Program-made: the position numbers and the translations under genes
Notes under the pieces: model-generated
The model's input: the letters and a program-made list of their open reading frames with translations, nothing else
The model's database searches: none
Told to the model about the DNA's origin: nothing
Shown here: positions 364-5,159 of the stretch, in pieces
Layout of the letters: each line of letters starts with the position of its first letter
Position numbering within the stretch: the first letter of the stretch is position 1
Virus record (IMG/VR): IMGVR_UViG_2698536403_000005
Location: 1 to 5,159 of that record
Source: a virus
Taxonomy: Duplodnaviria; Heunggongvirae; Uroviricota; Caudoviricetes
Strand: one strand, 5' to 3'
Length of the DNA: 5,159 nt

Positions 364-452
364 GCAGAATATTTTGCTGAAAAATGCGGTTTGCTCACAC
401 GGGCGGATAACACGAAATCCTGCGAACTGGCAAAAACTAAGTGAATAAAAGT

Positions 453-490
453 AAAACCCCGTTTGTTGGCCGCAAGCGGGGTTTTGTGTT
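453..490 (+). terminator. Stable hairpin followed by a T-rich tract (putative intrinsic terminator or RNA structure) between endolysin and spanin genes
   Basis: AAAACCCCG (453-461) pairs with CGGGGTTTT (477-485); the stem can extend inward (463-465 with 473-475), followed by TTTTGTGTTT. Seen directly in the sequence; function is inferred. Confidence 0.35.
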
Positions 491-557
491 TCCTGACTCC
501 GGAAAAGTCAAAGGAGAAAGTGTGTTTGATTTTAGCAAACTGATTCGGGAGATTCGA

Positions 558-659
558 ATGATGGCTGAAAAATTATCCACCTGGAAGTTCATCCTTATCT
601 GGCTGGTGTTTGTGATTATGGCTTCCGGTTATTTCATTGGTCAGATACGCTGGTGGTGA
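558..659 (+). CDS. Small hydrophobic peptide (33 aa, single predicted transmembrane helix), unknown function
   Basis: ATG at 558 preceded by GGGAGA (547-552) with a 5-nt spacer; translation MMAEKLSTWKFILIWLVFVIMASGYFIGQIRWW has an ~18-residue hydrophobic core. Stop TGA 657-659 lies 1 nt before the Rz ATG at 661, consistent with translational coupling. The longer 441 start in the ORF track would span the hairpin, so the 558 start is preferred. Confidence 0.35.
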   Translation: MMAEKLSTWKFILIWLVFVIMASGYFIGQIRWW

Positions 660-1656: not shown

Positions 1657-1700
1657 TTGATGACCGACAGGGTGGCATTGTTAGAATAAGACTTATTCTT
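1657..1700 (+). promoter_or_regulatory. Candidate sigma70 promoter with extended -10 (TGtTAGAAT, 1679-1687) and TTGATG -35-like hexamer (1657-1662), overlapping the palindrome GAATAAGaCTTATTC (1684-1698)
   Basis: Motifs read directly from the sequence; spacing of -35 to -10 is ~19 nt, which is suboptimal. Sits 25-30 nt upstream of the TonB-like gene start at 1714. Prediction only. Confidence 0.25.
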
Positions 1701-2177: not shown

Positions 2178-2378
2178 TCATTTCTCGTTATTTGTCATGC
2201 TGGCCGGGCGCAGATGCGTTGCATCTGTTGACAGCCTTCTTCTGCAGGCTTCAATAACCCACGCTGAAAAGTTTCCTGAACCTTTCAGATCAAGAGCGAT
2301 GTTAATTTGTTCAATCATCTGGTTTGGAAATCGGATGTTGCGGGTTGTTGTTCTGCGGGTTCTGTTCTTTGATGACAT
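2178..2378 (-). CDS. Small putative DNA-binding protein (ribbon-helix-helix / Arc-MetJ-like fold suspected), 66 aa
   Basis: Minus-strand ATG (complement of 2376-2378) preceded by GGGGA at appropriate spacing. Translation MSSKNRTRRTTTRNIRFPNQMIEQINIALDLKGSGNFSAWVIEACRRRL… has a basic N-terminal tail, then a beta-strand-like IRFP segment and two helices in the pattern of RHH proteins. Family assignment is from pattern only. Confidence 0.5.
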   Translation of the reverse strand: MSSKNRTRRTTTRNIRFPNQMIEQINIALDLKGSGNFSAWVIEACRRRLSTDATHLRPASMTNNEK

Positions 2379-2539
2379 AATGTTTCCCCATATTCAGTGT
2401 TGCTGATTTGTATTATCTGAAGTTGCTTTTACGTTAATTTGACGCAGATCAATTAATACGATACCTGCGTCATAATTGATTATTTCTCGTGGTTTGATGG
2501 CGTACACACATGTTGTGATAAACCTTATATAGATGATAA

Positions 2540-2601
2540 TCATTATCATTTCGTGGGTCCTTTCCGGCGATCCGACCGGTTACGGGGCGGCGACCTCGCG
2601 G
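2540..2601 (+). other. cos: cos site core: cosQ-proximal region and cosN; 12-nt cohesive-end sequence GGGCGGCGACCT at 2585-2596
   Basis: The stretch ~2385-2630 is near-identical to the lambda right-end/left-end junction as I recall it from lambda and cosmid cos fragments (…GGTCCTTTCCGGTGATCCGACAGGTTACG|GGGCGGCGACCTCGCGGGTTTTCGCTATTTATGAAAATTTT…). Here it reads …gggtcctttccggcgatccgaccggttacg|gggcggcgacctcgcgggttttcgctatttatgaaaattttt…. Location immediately upstream of Nu1 is canonical. Confidence 0.75.
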
Positions 2602-2765: not shown

Positions 2766-2855
2766 ATGAACGTCAATAAGAAAAAACTGGCCGATATTTT
2801 TGGCGTTGATGTCAGGACCATCACCGCCTGGCAGAGTCAGGGGTTCTGCTGCTGA
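2766..2855 (+). pseudogene. nu1: Terminase small subunit (Nu1) remnant: first ~26 codons intact, then out-of-frame junction and TGA stop
   Basis: ATG 2766; [26 protein letters not shown] matches lambda Nu1 N-terminus MEVNKKQLADIFGASIRTIQNWQEQG (the DNA-binding winged-HTH start); then FCC-stop at 2853-2855. Lambda Nu1 is ~181 aa, so ~155 codons are missing. Confidence 0.8.
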
Positions 2856-4449
2856 AGATTTTATGAAATCTCATGTGGAACCCACGATCAGGGATGTGCC
2901 GGTTTTACTCGATCTTGCACCGTGGTTTGGGCGTAAACATCGTGATAATACCCTCACGCTGAAACGTTTTTCATCGGGCGTGGGCTTCTGGTGCCTGGGC
3001 GGGGCTGCCGCTAAAAACTACCGTGAAAAATCCGTGGACGTGGTCTGCTATGACGAACTTTCCTCGTTCGAACCGGATGTCGAAAAAGAGGGTTCGCCAA
3101 CCCTGCTTGGGGATAAACGTATTGAGGGCTCTGTATGGCCCAAATCCATTCGCGGCTCGACGCCTAAAATCAAAGGCACCTGCCAGATCGAAAAAGCGGC
3201 CAACGAGTCGGCGCATTTCATGCGTTTTTATGTGCCCTGCCCACACTGTGGGGAGGAGCAGTATCTGAAATTTGGCGATGAATCCACGCCTTTTGGCCTT
3301 AAATGGGAGAAGGACAGCCCCGAAAGCGTTTTCTACCTCTGTGAACATCATGGCTGCGTGATCCATCAGTCTGAGCTTGACCAGAGCAACGGGCGGTGGA
3401 TCTGTGAAAACACGGGGATGTGGACCCGTGACGGTCTGACGTTTTTCAGCGCCGCGGATAATGAAATTCCGCCGCCGCGCTCCATCACGTTCCATATCTG
3501 GACGGCGTACAGTCCGTTCACCACCTGGGTACAGATAGTCTATGACTGGCTGGATGCACTGAAAGATCCCAACGGCCTGAAAACCTTTGTGAACACCACG
3601 CTGGGCGAGACCTGGGAAGAGGCCGTGGGCGAAAAACTCGATCACCAGGTACTGATGGATAAGGTCGTGCATTACACGGCGGCGGTGCCAGCCCGGGTGG
3701 TTTATCTGACGGCGGGCATTGACTCGCAGCGAAACCGTTTTGAGATGTATGTCTGGGGATGGGCACCGGGAGAGGAAGCTTTTCTGGTGGATAAAATCAT
3801 CATTATGGGCCGTCCCGATGAGGAAGAGACGCTGTTACGTGTGGATGCGGCGATCAACAAAAAATACTGCCATGCAGACGGAACCGAAATGACCATTTCC
3901 CGTGTCTGCTGGGACACCGGGGGGATCGATGGTGAAATTGTCTATCAGAGGTCAAAAAAACACGGTGTTTTCCGGGTGCTGCCGGTAAAAGGCGCATCTG
4001 TCTATGGCAAGCCGGTGATCACCATGCCGAAAACCCGCAATCAGCGGGGCGTGTATCTGTGTGAAGTGGGGACGGACACCGCAAAAGAAATTCTCTATGC
4101 CCGTATGAAAGCCGATCCCACGTCTGCGGATGAAGCCACGTCGTATGCCATCCGTTTTCCTGATGATCCGGAGATTTTTTCGCAGACAGAGGCGCAGCAA
4201 CTGGTCGCGGAAGAGCTTGTGGAGAAGTGGGAAAAAGGAAAGATGCGTCTGCTGTGGGATAACAAAAAGCGGCGTAACGAAGCGCTGGACTGCCTGGTGT
4301 ATGCCTACGCGGCATTACGTGTGTCCGTGCAACGCTGGCAGCTTGATCTGGCTGTACTGGCAAAATCCCGGGAAGAAGAGACGACCCGGCCAACCCTTAA
4401 AGAACTGGCAGCGAAGCTGTCCGGAGGAGTGAATGGTTACAGTCGCTGA
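2848..4449 (+). pseudogene. A: Terminase large subunit (gpA) homologue lacking the N-terminal ~105-110 residues
   Basis: From [40 protein letters not shown]… to the end, the translation is collinear with lambda gpA from about residue 105 (DAENFMKTHVEPTIRDIPSLLALAPWYGKKHRDNTLTMKRF…), including CPHCGEEQYLKFGD, HIWTAYSPFTTWVQIV and KKRRNEALDC. The Nu1-interaction region and the N-terminal part of the packaging ATPase are absent. The only upstream in-frame starts are TTG 2800 and ATG 2809 without a Shine-Dalgarno; ATG 2863 lies 8 nt after the Nu1-remnant stop. Confidence 0.8.
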
Positions 4450-4639
4450 ACTACAGGCGCTGCGTCAGGCGCGCCTTGATTTATTAACCGGTAAACGGGT
4501 GGTGTCTGTCCAGAAAGATGGTCGCAGAATTGAATATACGGCGGCTTCTCTGGATGAGCTTAACCGGGCGATCAATGATGCGGAGTCGGTACTGGGGACA
4601 ACCCGACGTCGCCGTCGTCCGCTGGGAGTGAGGTTATGA
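4433..4639 (+). CDS. W: gpW-like head completion protein
   Basis: MVTVAELQALRQARLDLLTGKRVVSVQKDGRRIEYTAASLDELNRAINDAE…TTRRRRRP matches lambda W (…[38 protein letters not shown]…QRRRGP). ATG 4433 preceded by GGAGGA; the start overlaps the end of A and the stop overlaps the B start (ATGA at 4636-4639), as in lambda. Confidence 0.85.
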   Translation: MVTVAELQALRQARLDLLTGKRVVSVQKDGRRIEYTAASLDELNRAINDAESVLGTTRRRRRPLGVRL

Positions 4640-4857
4640 AACGAACGCCTGTCCTGATTGATGTGAACGGCGTTCCGCTTCGTGAGAGTCTCAGCTACAA
4701 CGGGGGCGGCGCAGGATTTGGCGGGCAAATGGCGGAGTGGTTGCCACCGGCGCAGAGTGCCGATGCGGCCCTGCTATGCGCGGGTTTTCTTTTGCGCGCT
4801 CGGGCGCGAGATGGGGGCAGCAAGTCTTTCGGTACCACAACAGCAGGTACAGCTTGA
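4636..4857 (+). pseudogene. B: Portal protein (gpB) remnant: ~47 N-terminal codons homologous to portal, then frameshifted junk to stop
   Basis: MKRTPVLIDVNGVPLRESLSYNGGGAGFGGQMAEWLPPAQSADAALL matches lambda B N-terminus (…SLREYAGYHGGGSGFGGQLRSWNPPSESVDAALL…); after ~4773 the frame no longer resembles portal and stops at 4857. Lambda portal is ~533 aa. Confidence 0.75.
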
Positions 4858-5158
4858 TGCTCCCGGAATGCTGGCTGAAACGGACGAGTACATGGCCGGA
4901 GGTAAACGACCGGCCCGTGTTTACCGGGTGGTGAACGGTATTGCGGTACTGCCGGTGAGCGGCACGCTGGTGCACCGGCTGGGGGGGATGCGGCCATTTT
5001 CCGGAATGACTGGCTATGACGGCATTGTCGCCTGTCTTCAGCAGGCAATGGCAGATAGCCAGGTGCGGGGCATACTGCTGGACATTGACAGTCCGGGCGG
5101 GCAGGCCGCCGGCGCGTTTGACTGCGCTGACATGATTTACCGCCTCCGTCAGCAGAAG
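4775..5158 (+). pseudogene. C: Head protease/scaffold gpC homologue (peptidase S49-like) lacking first ~25 codons; runs off the window end
   Basis: In the frame starting at 4775: YARVFFCAL…RVYRVVNGIAVLPVSGTLVHRLGGMRPFSGMTGYDGIVACLQQAMADSQVRGILLDIDSPGGQAAGAFDCADMIYRLRQQK, collinear with lambda C from residue ~26 (AYARVFFCALAGQ…SYQVMNGIAVLPVSGTLVSRTRALQPYSGMTGYNGIIARLQQAASDPMVDGILLDMDTPGGMVAGAFDCADIIARVRD). This frame is not in the supplied ORF track, which appears to omit ORFs with no stop inside the window. Confidence 0.75.
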
Positions 5159-5159
5159 C

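What the first reader, a model, noticed from the sequence alone, without database searches (positions are those of the whole stretch)
2178..2378. Convergent minus-strand RHH-like small gene between the moron locus and cos
A 66-aa ORF with a good Shine-Dalgarno, a basic N-terminal tail and an RHH-like beta-alpha-alpha pattern lies on the opposite strand, with its promoter necessarily inside the cosQ-proximal DNA. The DNA around its start codon (…cagtgaatatggggaaacattATG on the minus strand) resembles the corresponding lambda right-end sequence as I recall it, suggesting a conserved but little-annotated feature. It has no adjacent partner ORF, so it could be an orphan antitoxin-like regulator, a repressor of the neighbouring moron, or a cos-associated factor.
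Basis: partly seen in the sequence, partly recalled or inferred. Interest (0 to 1): 0.45.

Follow-up and report, generated by a model that had tools for sequence, protein, structure and literature searches.

The report
Conserved small RHH-like prophage gene
The 66-codon minus-strand ORF next to cos is a real gene under strong selection, belongs to the already catalogued but uncharacterised DUF3950 (YlcI/YnfO) family of lambdoid prophages, and most likely encodes a small ribbon-helix-helix DNA-binding regulator, so it is ordinary apart from its unknown function.

Summary
The ORF at 2178-2378 (-) exists as described. It matches Pfam DUF3950 and NCBIfam YlcI_YnfO_N above their curated cut-offs. 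The identical protein is already in NCBI as "YlcI/YnfO family protein".

Phage lambda has a 64-aa homologue at 48109-48303 (complement), which RefSeq lambda does not annotate. Related DNA occurs in 4184 of 5426 complete E. coli genomes.

The minus-strand frame is the coding one. Window versus lambda gives 18 synonymous and 5 non-synonymous changes (dN/dS 0.05). The overlapping plus-strand ORF 2197-2406 is a shadow frame.

An RHH fold is supported but not proven:
- The N-I-R-F-P motif aligns with Arc's N-L-R-W-P.
- AlphaFold predicts two helices after it.
- No sequence profile links the family to a named RHH family.

The gene is not tied to lambda cos. A close relative sits beside an HNH/terminase module, and distant relatives sit in P4-like satellites, divergent from an operon, with island-specific repeated palindromes in between.

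Best reading: an accessory transcriptional regulator, probably a repressor, transcribed against the late operon. Its target and promoter remain unknown. This is a known family and of low-to-moderate interest.

The parts
2178..2378 (-). CDS of a 66-aa DUF3950 / YlcI-YnfO family protein (stop codon 2178-2180)
   Evidence: The ORF is listed. It matches Pfam PF13132 at E 1e-18, NCBIfam NF041551 and phrog_949 at E 2e-32. An identical protein, P0001, is named YlcI/YnfO family protein. dN/dS is 0.05 against lambda.
2385..2389 (-). Shine-Dalgarno-like GGGGA, 6 nt upstream of the ATG
   Evidence: Read directly from the minus-strand sequence. The equivalent GGGG is kept in lambda, ynfO and ylcI (alignment A4).
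2325..2342 (-). Codons 13-18 (R-N-I-R-F-P): the predicted DNA-reading beta-strand of an RHH fold
   Evidence: I15, R16 and F17 are invariant or nearly so in 19-30 diverged homologues. hhalign aligns the motif with Arc NLRWP and CopG TITLS. It is extended or coil in the monomer model.
2217..2324 (-). Codons 19-54: helix A (19-32), a G-S-G-N turn, and helix B (37-54) with the near-invariant NFSAWV-x-AC
   Evidence: AlphaFold2 secondary structure with pLDDT 77-85 in this stretch. Invariant columns are listed. The Pfam DUF3950 profile covers residues 21-49.
2181..2231 (-). Variable C-terminal tail (about residues 50-66); a mosaic recombination junction falls here
   Evidence: Homology of other E. 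coli alleles starts at query nt 47-67 of the ORF. Tails differ between window, lambda, ynfO and PerC-type alleles, while codons 1-50 are about 85-100% identical in DNA. Residues 60-66 have pLDDT below 50.
2412..2417 (-). Candidate -10 hexamer GATAAT (GACAAT in lambda), 34-39 nt before the ATG; inferred only
   Evidence: Read. No acceptable -35 was found, and the automatic scan did not report it. The position matches the TATAGT-like element upstream of satellite homologues.
2440..2480 (.). Interleaved inverted repeats TGACGCAG-ATCAATTA ... CTGCGTCA-TAATTGAT, 62-102 bp upstream of the ATG; possible operator, untested
   Evidence: the repeat finder pairs I3 and I11. Conserved in lambda, ynfO, ylcI and PerC-type alleles. 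Absent from the HNH-type relative.
2533..2549 (.).
   Evidence: the repeat finder pair I12. It matches 15 of 19 positions of a Fur-box consensus, a score reached in 2 of 300 shuffles. Conserved in lambda. Absent from the HNH-type relative.
2555..2596 (+). cosQ (GGGTCCT, 2555-2561) and the 12-nt cohesive-end sequence of cosN (2585-2596); context, not part of the gene
   Evidence: Placed by position relative to the annotated cosQ of phage 434 and by identity to the lambda ends.
2197..2406 (+). 69-aa antisense shadow ORF; not a gene
   Evidence: Its wobble positions coincide with those of the real gene. Against lambda it shows 11 synonymous and 11 non-synonymous changes, compared with 18 and 5 for the real frame. 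This frame has stops in the HNH-type allele and in 6 of 21 distant homologues, and its mean BLOSUM62 score at differing residues is -1.26 against -0.15.

Best explanation
The ORF is a genuine accessory gene of lambdoid prophages, a member of the DUF3950 (YlcI/YnfO) family.

**What the protein probably is (inferred).** It most likely folds as a ribbon-helix-helix (RHH) protein:
- a basic N-terminal arm, residues 1-12;
- a beta-strand, R-N-I-R-F-P, that would pair with the same strand of a second subunit and insert into the DNA major groove;
- two helices, 19-32 and 37-54, that form the dimer core;
- a variable, disordered C-terminal tail.

**What it probably does (inferred).** It acts as a sequence-specific transcriptional regulator, probably a repressor that also regulates itself.

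**When it is probably expressed (inferred).**
- The gene is read leftward, against the late pR' transcript that crosses cos.
- It is therefore expected to be made mainly in the prophage state.
- It should be silenced by convergent late transcription after induction.
- In lambda and Qin-type prophages it heads a leftward block of accessory genes (DUF1398, bor).
- In this window it stands alone, converging with a TonB-like lipoprotein gene.

**Shown versus not shown.**
- Shown: gene reality, family membership, purifying selection, position and conservation.
- Inferred: the RHH fold (about 0.75), DNA binding and repression (about 0.5), and timing of expression.
- Unknown: the DNA target and the promoter.
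For: **Family membership**
- establish membership of DUF3950 / YlcI-YnfO.

**Coding frame and selection**
- Third-codon positions are the most variable, and indels are confined to the inter-helix loop in whole codons.
- Mean BLOSUM62 is 2.48 in this frame against 1.22 in the antisense frame, with 0 stops against 8.
- dN/dS is 0.03-0.07 among lambdoid alleles.

**Fold**
- AlphaFold2 with a 19-sequence alignment gives an extended 14-18 segment plus helices 19-32 and 37-54, at pLDDT 71.
- The Foldseek list is dominated by NikR, ParD, Arc and MazE9 RHH domains, though none is significant.
- hhalign puts NIRFP on Arc NLRWP (P 0.009) and on CopG TITLS.
- There is a weak PHROG hit to HicB-like (E 0.005).

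**Regulator role, by analogy**
- In 13 P4-like/PICI-type loci, the distant homologue is transcribed divergently from the replication operon.
- Two or three island-specific palindromes (spacing 23-26 and 45-47 bp) bracket a conserved TTGACG and a TATAGT-like -10.

**Expression**
- A published RNA-seq survey lists ybcW-ylcI, the same convergent layout in E. coli K-12, as an overlapping transcript pair (PMC12288877).

**Accessory status and position**
- The gene always lies at the lysis/moron-packaging junction.
- It is intact here although nu1, gpA and the portal gene are truncated.
Against: - No Pfam, NCBIfam or PDB sequence profile links the family to a named RHH family.
- A profile search of 5.8 billion proteins listed only DUF3950 proteins among its best 120 hits.
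- A tandem, single-chain dimer model failed to form the beta-ribbon, at pLDDT 56.
- No canonical promoter was found between the ATG and cosQ.
- The conserved palindromes upstream of the gene are missing from a close relative with a nearly identical DNA-reading head. A common operator has therefore not been identified.
- No paper found in three full-text searches reports any function. Two papers I tried to open by PMC id, the lambda ribosome-profiling study and the 2015 lambda review, were not held.
Confidence: 0.6

Rival explanations
1. It is an RHH antitoxin-like or partner-binding protein. The conserved head binds DNA, and the variable C-terminal tail binds and controls a protein encoded downstream, for example DUF1398 (YdfO/YbcV/lambda p78). 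The window copy would then be an orphan that has lost its partner.
For: - The C-terminal tail changes together with the downstream cargo.
- In Qin-type prophages and several phages, DUF1398 lies 50-140 nt downstream on the same strand.
- One database entry, P0168, is a DUF3950-DUF1398 read-through fusion.
Against: - Only 43 phage records carry DUF1398, against 155 that carry DUF3950.
- There is no co-oriented downstream ORF in this window.
- Neither protein has a PADLOC hit.
- The tail variation is equally well explained by a recombination junction.
- DUF1398 has no known toxicity.
Confidence: 0.15
2. It is a small protein with a function other than DNA binding, for example a protein-protein modulator. 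On this reading the RHH resemblance is superficial.
For: All fold matches are statistically weak. There is no sequence-profile link to RHH families. The dimer model failed.
Against: The invariant residues fall exactly on the RHH strand and on the hydrophobic faces of the two helices. The arm is basic. The satellites have an operator-like layout.
Confidence: 0.15
3. It is a cos- or packaging-associated DNA-binding factor that acts at the conserved palindromes next to cosQ.
For: In lambda-type prophages, the gene's 5' two-thirds, its upstream region and cos form one conserved block. The gene always adjoins the terminase genes. One satellite homologue is fused to a weak Terminase_2-like HTH.
Against: - A close relative with the same RNIRFP strand and only four head substitutions adjoins an HNH/terS module with unrelated DNA and lacks both palindromes.
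- Distant members lie in satellites or at chromosomal sites with no packaging genes nearby.
- From my own knowledge of lambda biology, functional minimal cos sites do not include this gene.
- The gene is kept intact here although the packaging genes are destroyed.
Confidence: 0.07
4. It is not a gene on this strand. The conservation would reflect cos-flanking DNA, or the plus-strand ORF 2197-2406.
For: The antisense frame is open in the window and in lambda. Its wobble positions coincide with those of the minus-strand frame, so it also shows a lowish dN/dS of 0.16-0.43. Gene callers pick the antisense ORF in some satellites.
Against: - The minus-strand frame shows 18 synonymous to 5 non-synonymous changes, against 11 to 11 in the antisense frame.
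- The antisense frame has stops in the HNH-type allele and in 6 of 21 distant homologues.
- Substitutions are conservative only in the minus-strand frame.
- The protein is conserved at 35-55% identity in loci with unrelated flanking DNA.
Confidence: 0.02

Closest known systems
DUF3950 / YlcI-YnfO family (Pfam PF13132, NCBIfam NF041551; E. coli K-12 ylcI in DLP12 and ynfO in Qin)
   Same: It scores above both curated cut-offs. Residues 1-50 are about 90% identical to YlcI, YnfO and the lambda homologue. The position and orientation are the same, immediately upstream of the Nu1-type terminase gene and divergent from it.
   Different: The C-terminal tail (STDATHLRPASMTNNEK) is an allele that travels with the TonB-like lipoprotein moron. 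There is no DUF1398 gene downstream.
Arc and Mnt repressors of Salmonella phage P22 (immI region), the archetypal phage RHH repressors
   Same: Small size. The N-x-R-aromatic-P strand motif matches (NIRFP against Arc NLRWP), followed by two helices with a G-x-N/S turn. In satellite homologues, a small repressor-like gene is divergent from an operon with operators in between, and an antisense-RNA-like hairpin lies nearby. That layout recalls mnt / P_ant / sar, which I cite from my own knowledge of P22.
   Different: There is no significant sequence-profile match. The genomic location differs, being the lysis-packaging junction rather than immI. No ant-type target was identified in lambdoid phages, and DNA binding is untested.
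CopG-family RHH antitoxins (TacA, ParD, VapB12, CopA_SO)
   Different: There is no adjacent toxin gene in the window, no PADLOC hit, and sequence identity of only 5-26%.

Membership tests
DUF3950 / YlcI-YnfO | Score above the curated gathering cut-off of Pfam PF13132 and NCBIfam NF041551 | tested here: met
   67.2 bits against a cut-off of 25, and 34.9 bits against 30. All 30 diverged homologues also match PF13132.
DUF3950 / YlcI-YnfO | Small protein (about 50-80 aa) with the conserved core K-N-I-R-F-P ... N-F-S-A-W-V-x-(E/D)-A-C | tested here: met
   Alignments A1, A5 and A9 show R16, I25, F37, W40, V41 and C45 as invariant.
Ribbon-helix-helix (MetJ/Arc/CopG) superfamily | Beta-strand followed by two helices joined by a short G-x-S/T/N turn | tested here: met
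   The AlphaFold2 model has an extended 14-18 segment, helix 19-32, the turn G-S-G-N, and helix 37-54. The helices were reproduced in the tandem model.
Ribbon-helix-helix (MetJ/Arc/CopG) superfamily | Structural similarity to solved RHH proteins | tested here: inconclusive
Ribbon-helix-helix (MetJ/Arc/CopG) superfamily | Sequence-profile match to a named RHH family (RHH_1/CopG, Arc, MetJ and others) | tested here: not met
   No RHH Pfam family matched at E up to 1 for the window protein. One of 30 homologues gave HicB_lk_antitox at E 0.08. hhalign to Arc alone gave P 0.009 and probability 4.5%. Profile searches of PDB sequences found nothing.
Ribbon-helix-helix (MetJ/Arc/CopG) superfamily | Intertwined homodimer with a two-stranded antiparallel beta-ribbon | tested here: inconclusive
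   The tandem-repeat AlphaFold2 model had pLDDT 56 and formed no ribbon. Its alignment covered only one copy. No multimer predictor was available.
Ribbon-helix-helix (MetJ/Arc/CopG) superfamily | Sequence-specific binding to repeated or palindromic operator DNA | not testable with these tools
   Candidate sites exist in the window (2440-2480 and 2533-2549) and, more convincingly, upstream of the satellite homologues. Binding needs an experiment.
Type II toxin-antitoxin antitoxin | Co-transcribed adjacent toxin gene | tested here: not met
   There is no co-oriented ORF downstream. The neighbour is a convergent TonB_C lipoprotein gene. There are no PADLOC hits.
Lambda cos-associated element | Obligate linkage to lambda-type cosQ/cosN DNA | tested here: not met
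   The HNH-type relative (88.6% nt identity) has unrelated upstream DNA. Satellite and chromosomal homologues have no cos nearby.

The most novel reading that the evidence does not exclude
DUF3950 proteins could be an unrecognised class of RHH immunity or switch repressors. On this reading:
- In P4-like/PICI satellites, they would control the divergent replication operon through island-specific triple operators, working together with an antisense small RNA.
- The nearly invariant copy that lambdoid prophages, lambda included, keep beside cos would be a lysogeny-expressed repressor.
- That copy's target could be the leftward accessory operon, a read-through or antisense promoter at cos, or incoming relatives or satellites.

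If so, this would be a missing regulatory layer of lambda biology.
Probability: 0.12. Interest if true: 0.6.

Novelty: already known. Interest (0 to 1): 0.25.

Why it matters
The gene is one of the most widespread uncharacterised prophage genes in E. coli. Related DNA is present in about 77% of complete genomes, with up to 12 copies in one genome. It exists in phage lambda itself, yet the reference annotation omits it.

Showing that it is under strong purifying selection and probably encodes an RHH DNA-binding protein turns a DUF label into a testable hypothesis, namely a lysogeny-expressed regulator at the lysis/packaging junction. It also flags a probable repressor-operator switch in P4-like satellites.

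For this window, however, it is a routine, already catalogued gene.

Tried and rejected
**Structure and fold**
- Tandem window sequence with one-sided alignment: low confidence and no ribbon.
- Foldseek against afdb50: the library was not available.
- Foldseek against PDB and viral models: nothing significant.

**Sequence searches**
- Sequence and profile searches of PDB chains: only chance hits.
- Pfam scan of 30 homologues for RHH families: none found.
- PADLOC: none.
- Second large profile search hoping to bridge to named RHH families: the listed top 120 of 1198 hits are all DUF3950; the rest were not listed.
- Rfam on the window and 12 satellite loci: only tRNAs and one int-alpA RNA.

**Regulatory sites**
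- Promoter and terminator scan: no minus-strand promoter between the ATG and cosQ. The only minus-strand candidates lie in cosB, at 2707-2680 and 2695-2668.
- Search for the lambda-type palindromes in the HNH-type relative: absent.

**Literature**
- The only mentions are lists and mutation tables. There is also one RNA-seq "excludon" listing for ybcW-ylcI.
- The lambda ribosome-profiling paper and the 2015 lambda review are not held.

**Ideas considered and rejected**
- That the long antisense ORFs overlapping the DUF3950 homologues in satellites are the real genes. They have no Pfam hits. Their similarity outside the overlap coincides with a conserved non-coding hairpin. The frame test favours DUF3950.

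**Tool failure**
- The first search for related loci attempt failed on a gappy alignment.

Full report
**1. Observation**

The window is the lysis-to-head region of a lambda-like prophage. Its parts, in order (and 8 for cosQ):
- lysozyme, 1-363;
- Rz, 661-1128;
- two small ORFs of unknown function;
- a TonB_C-domain lipoprotein gene, 1705-2046;
- the ORF in question, 2178-2378 on the minus strand;
- cosQ at 2555-2561 and the cohesive-end sequence at 2585-2596;
- a truncated nu1, then gpA, gpW and a truncated portal gene.

It is 66 aa, starts with ATG, has GGGGA 6 nt upstream, and has a basic N-terminus.

**2. Identity**

- The protein matches Pfam DUF3950 (E 1e-18, 67 bits against a cut-off of 25), NCBIfam YlcI_YnfO_N (35 bits against 30) and PHROG 949, which has unknown function.
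- The identical sequence is already in NCBI as "YlcI/YnfO family protein", on a 5159-nt contig (P0001).
- DNA related to the ORF occurs in 4184 of 5426 complete E. coli genomes, with up to 12 places per genome. It also occurs in 155 phage records, including lambda, 434, HK629/630 and many Stx phages.
- In lambda the homologue is a 64-aa ORF at 48109-48303 (complement). RefSeq lambda does not annotate it. A curated phage 434 record does, as "DUF3950".

**3. Is it really coding, and on this strand?**

This needed care. A 69-aa ORF on the plus strand (2197-2406) overlaps it, and the third-codon positions of the two frames coincide.

Among lambdoid alleles, over codons 1-50:
- The minus-strand frame shows 18 synonymous and 5 non-synonymous differences between window and lambda (dN/dS 0.05). 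Other pairs give 0.03-0.07.
- The antisense frame shows 11 and 11, and acquires a stop in one allele.

Among 21 homologues down to 35% identity, from Rouxiella, Salmonella, Tatumella, Buttiauxella, Pantoea, Brenneria, Xenorhabdus, Photorhabdus, Serratia, Klebsiella, Enterobacter and Gilliamella:
- Third positions are the most variable, with pairwise difference 0.66 against 0.42 and 0.35.
- Indels are whole codons confined to one loop.
- The DUF3950 frame has no stops and conservative replacements, with mean BLOSUM62 of -0.15 where residues differ.
- The antisense frame has 8 stops and radical replacements, at -1.26.

The minus-strand ORF is the gene. The plus-strand ORF is a shadow.

**4. Fold**

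An AlphaFold2 model built on 19 sequences (pLDDT 71) has an extended segment at N-I-R-F-P (14-18), then helices 19-32 and 37-54, and a disordered tail.
- Foldseek lists are rich in NikR, ParD, Arc and MazE RHH domains, without significance.
- hhalign places NIRFP on Arc's NLRWP, and NIRFPNQMIEQI on CopG's TITLSESVLENL.

The invariant residues (I15, R16, F17, I25, F37, W40, V41, A44, C45) sit where an RHH strand and helix cores would be.

Against this:
- no sequence profile connects the family to a named RHH family;
- a tandem "single-chain dimer" model was uninformative.

I rate the RHH fold as likely, about 0.75, but not established.

**5. Context in lambdoid prophages**

The gene always lies at the junction between the lysis/moron region and the packaging genes, on the strand opposite to both.

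From codon 1 to about codon 50, and on through cos, lambda-type prophages share one conserved DNA block. Homology breaks inside the 3' end, which explains the different C-terminal tails.

What lies beyond the tail varies:
- ybcW/p79 then DUF1398 and bor in lambda and DLP12;
- ydfO (DUF1398) directly downstream in Qin;
- a PerC-family gene;
- or, as here, a TonB-like lipoprotein.

DUF1398 was found in 43 phage records, against 155 with DUF3950. Where I checked, it is co-oriented downstream of DUF3950. In lambda, DUF3950, DUF1398 and bor all point leftward.

One close relative (88.6% nt identity, with the same TonB neighbour) abuts an HNH endonuclease gene. Only 41 bp separates them, there is no lambda cos DNA, and none of the upstream palindromes are present. 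The gene is therefore an independent coding unit and not a cos feature. It also follows that the palindromes at 2440-2480 and 2533-2549 cannot be a universal operator.

**6. Distant relatives suggest the mechanism**

Thirteen distant homologues sit in P4-like/PICI-type islands. The other island genes called in these loci, such as integrase, an Ant/BRO-like gene and primase, are on the opposite strand.

The 170 nt upstream of each DUF3950 gene has a fixed plan:
- a conserved hairpin plus U-run;
- then two copies of an island-specific palindrome, 23-26 bp apart;
- a conserved CGTCAA, which reads TTGACG on the other strand with a TAnnnT 18 nt further on;
- and, in several islands, a third copy 45-47 bp further on, overlapping a TATAGT-like -10 about 35 nt before the ATG.

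Examples of the palindromes are GGTGCACATACAC in L054, TGTGCGCACAG in L071 and GTGCGGCCACAC in L082.

This is the layout of a repressor gene divergent from the operon it controls. It supports, by analogy only, a repressor role for the family.

The window shares two elements at the same distances: CGTCAA at -65 to -60, and GATAAT at -39 to -34. It does not have the triple operator.

**7. Expression**

The consensus scan found no minus-strand promoter between the ATG and cosQ. The only minus-strand candidates lie in cosB.

A published RNA-seq survey of E. coli K-12 lists ybcW-ylcI as a convergent overlapping transcript pair in at least half of the samples (PMC12288877). The DLP12 copy is therefore transcribed, in the same convergent arrangement as here.

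Because the gene is antisense to the late transcript that must cross cos, I infer expression in the prophage state and suppression after induction. This is inference, not data.

**8. Comparison, novelty and verdict**

The gene is a member of a catalogued family of unknown function, so it is already known as a feature. My full-text searches turned up no functional study.

What this analysis adds:
- a strand and frame test;
- a quantified selection signal;
- a probable RHH assignment;
- the observation that satellites use the family in a switch-like locus.

Interest is low to moderate, at 0.25.

Noticed in passing
window 2197-2406 (+): A 69-aa ORF lies antisense to the DUF3950 gene, and its wobble positions coincide with those of the real gene. 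It is a shadow frame. The same frame is open for 150-430 codons in P4-like islands, and gene callers annotate it there, for example Pmp7_0008, a 224-aa "transcriptional repressor" (L088 2583-3257).
   Followed up: yes
window 2529-2553: The palindrome ATGATAATCATTATCAT, immediately left of cosQ, matches 15 of 19 positions of the Fur-box consensus on both strands. Only 2 of 300 shuffles of the window reach that score. It is conserved in lambda. It overlaps a plus-strand promoter-like site, TTGTGA-16-GATAAT (2513-2540), that points into cos. A TonB-like gene lies nearby.
   Followed up: partly
window 2766-2854, 2800-4449, 4636-4857, 4781-5159: The prophage is packaging-defective. nu1 is cut to 29 codons (27 of 164 Pfam positions). 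gpA lacks about the first 75 positions of its ATPase domain. The portal ORF stops after 73 codons and runs into a different reading frame. No Pfam family matched that downstream frame. By eye, its GG...DIDSPGG motif resembles a gpC/S49-type head protease.
   Followed up: partly
window 1683-1699 and 1705-2046: A perfect 8-1-8 palindrome, AGAATAAG-A-CTTATTCT, sits about 20-37 nt upstream of the likely ATG (1720) of a TonB_C-domain lipoprotein moron. PHROGs labels this protein "Rz-like spanin", which is probably a misnomer. This moron and the window-type C-terminal tail of DUF3950 travel together in E. coli prophages.
   Followed up: partly
L002 (NC_001416) 2710-2904 = lambda 48109-48303 complement: RefSeq lambda does not annotate the DUF3950 homologue. 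It also labels the DUF1398 gene (lambdap78) as "head protein", which looks like an annotation error.
   Followed up: partly
L006-L017, L020-L025, L027-L030, L032-L036, L038, L040-L041, L081: Dozens of genome assemblies of unrelated bacteria, including Streptomyces, Oceanobacillus, Pedobacter and Shewanella, contain this lambda right-end segment at about 100% identity. Many carry it as contigs of about 3.5 kb. These look like lambda control-DNA contamination. They also explain the many frameshifted "DUF3950" proteins in metagenome-derived databases.
   Followed up: partly
L051 4811-4868, L054 4811-4868, L063 4779-4840, L071 4794-4852, L088 2819-2882 and others (alignment A8): A conserved hairpin lies upstream of the satellite DUF3950 genes. 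It has 15 pairs, 9 of them with compensatory changes. Many are G-U pairs that are valid only on the DUF3950 strand. A U-run follows. It probably terminates a small RNA antisense to the ribosome-binding site and start of the first gene of the opposite operon. There is no Rfam match.
   Followed up: partly
L051-L083 satellites, 30-125 nt upstream of DUF3950 (e.g. L054 4880-4919; L071 4866-4950): Island-specific palindromes are repeated two or three times, at spacings of 23-26 and 45-47 bp. They bracket a conserved TTGACG and a TATAGT-like -10. This is a divergent-promoter switch layout.
   Followed up: partly
L084 1947-2648; L004, L005, L019, L026, L037, L039: In Qin-type prophages, a DUF1398 gene (ydfO) follows DUF3950 (ynfO) on the same strand after about 50-100 nt, which suggests a two-gene operon. 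One database protein, P0168, is a read-through fusion of the two.
   Followed up: partly
window 441-659 and 1146-1376: About 300 bp is inserted between the lysozyme gene and Rz. It carries a small ORF ending in a hydrophobic segment (phrog_6632, unknown function), with a GC-rich hairpin at about 462-490. A second ORF after Rz matches phrog_2571 (unknown function). Neither has a Pfam hit.
   Followed up: no
L089 4001-4390: One satellite homologue, P0190 (129 aa), carries DUF3950 fused to a C-terminal segment with a weak Terminase_2-type HTH match.
   Followed up: no
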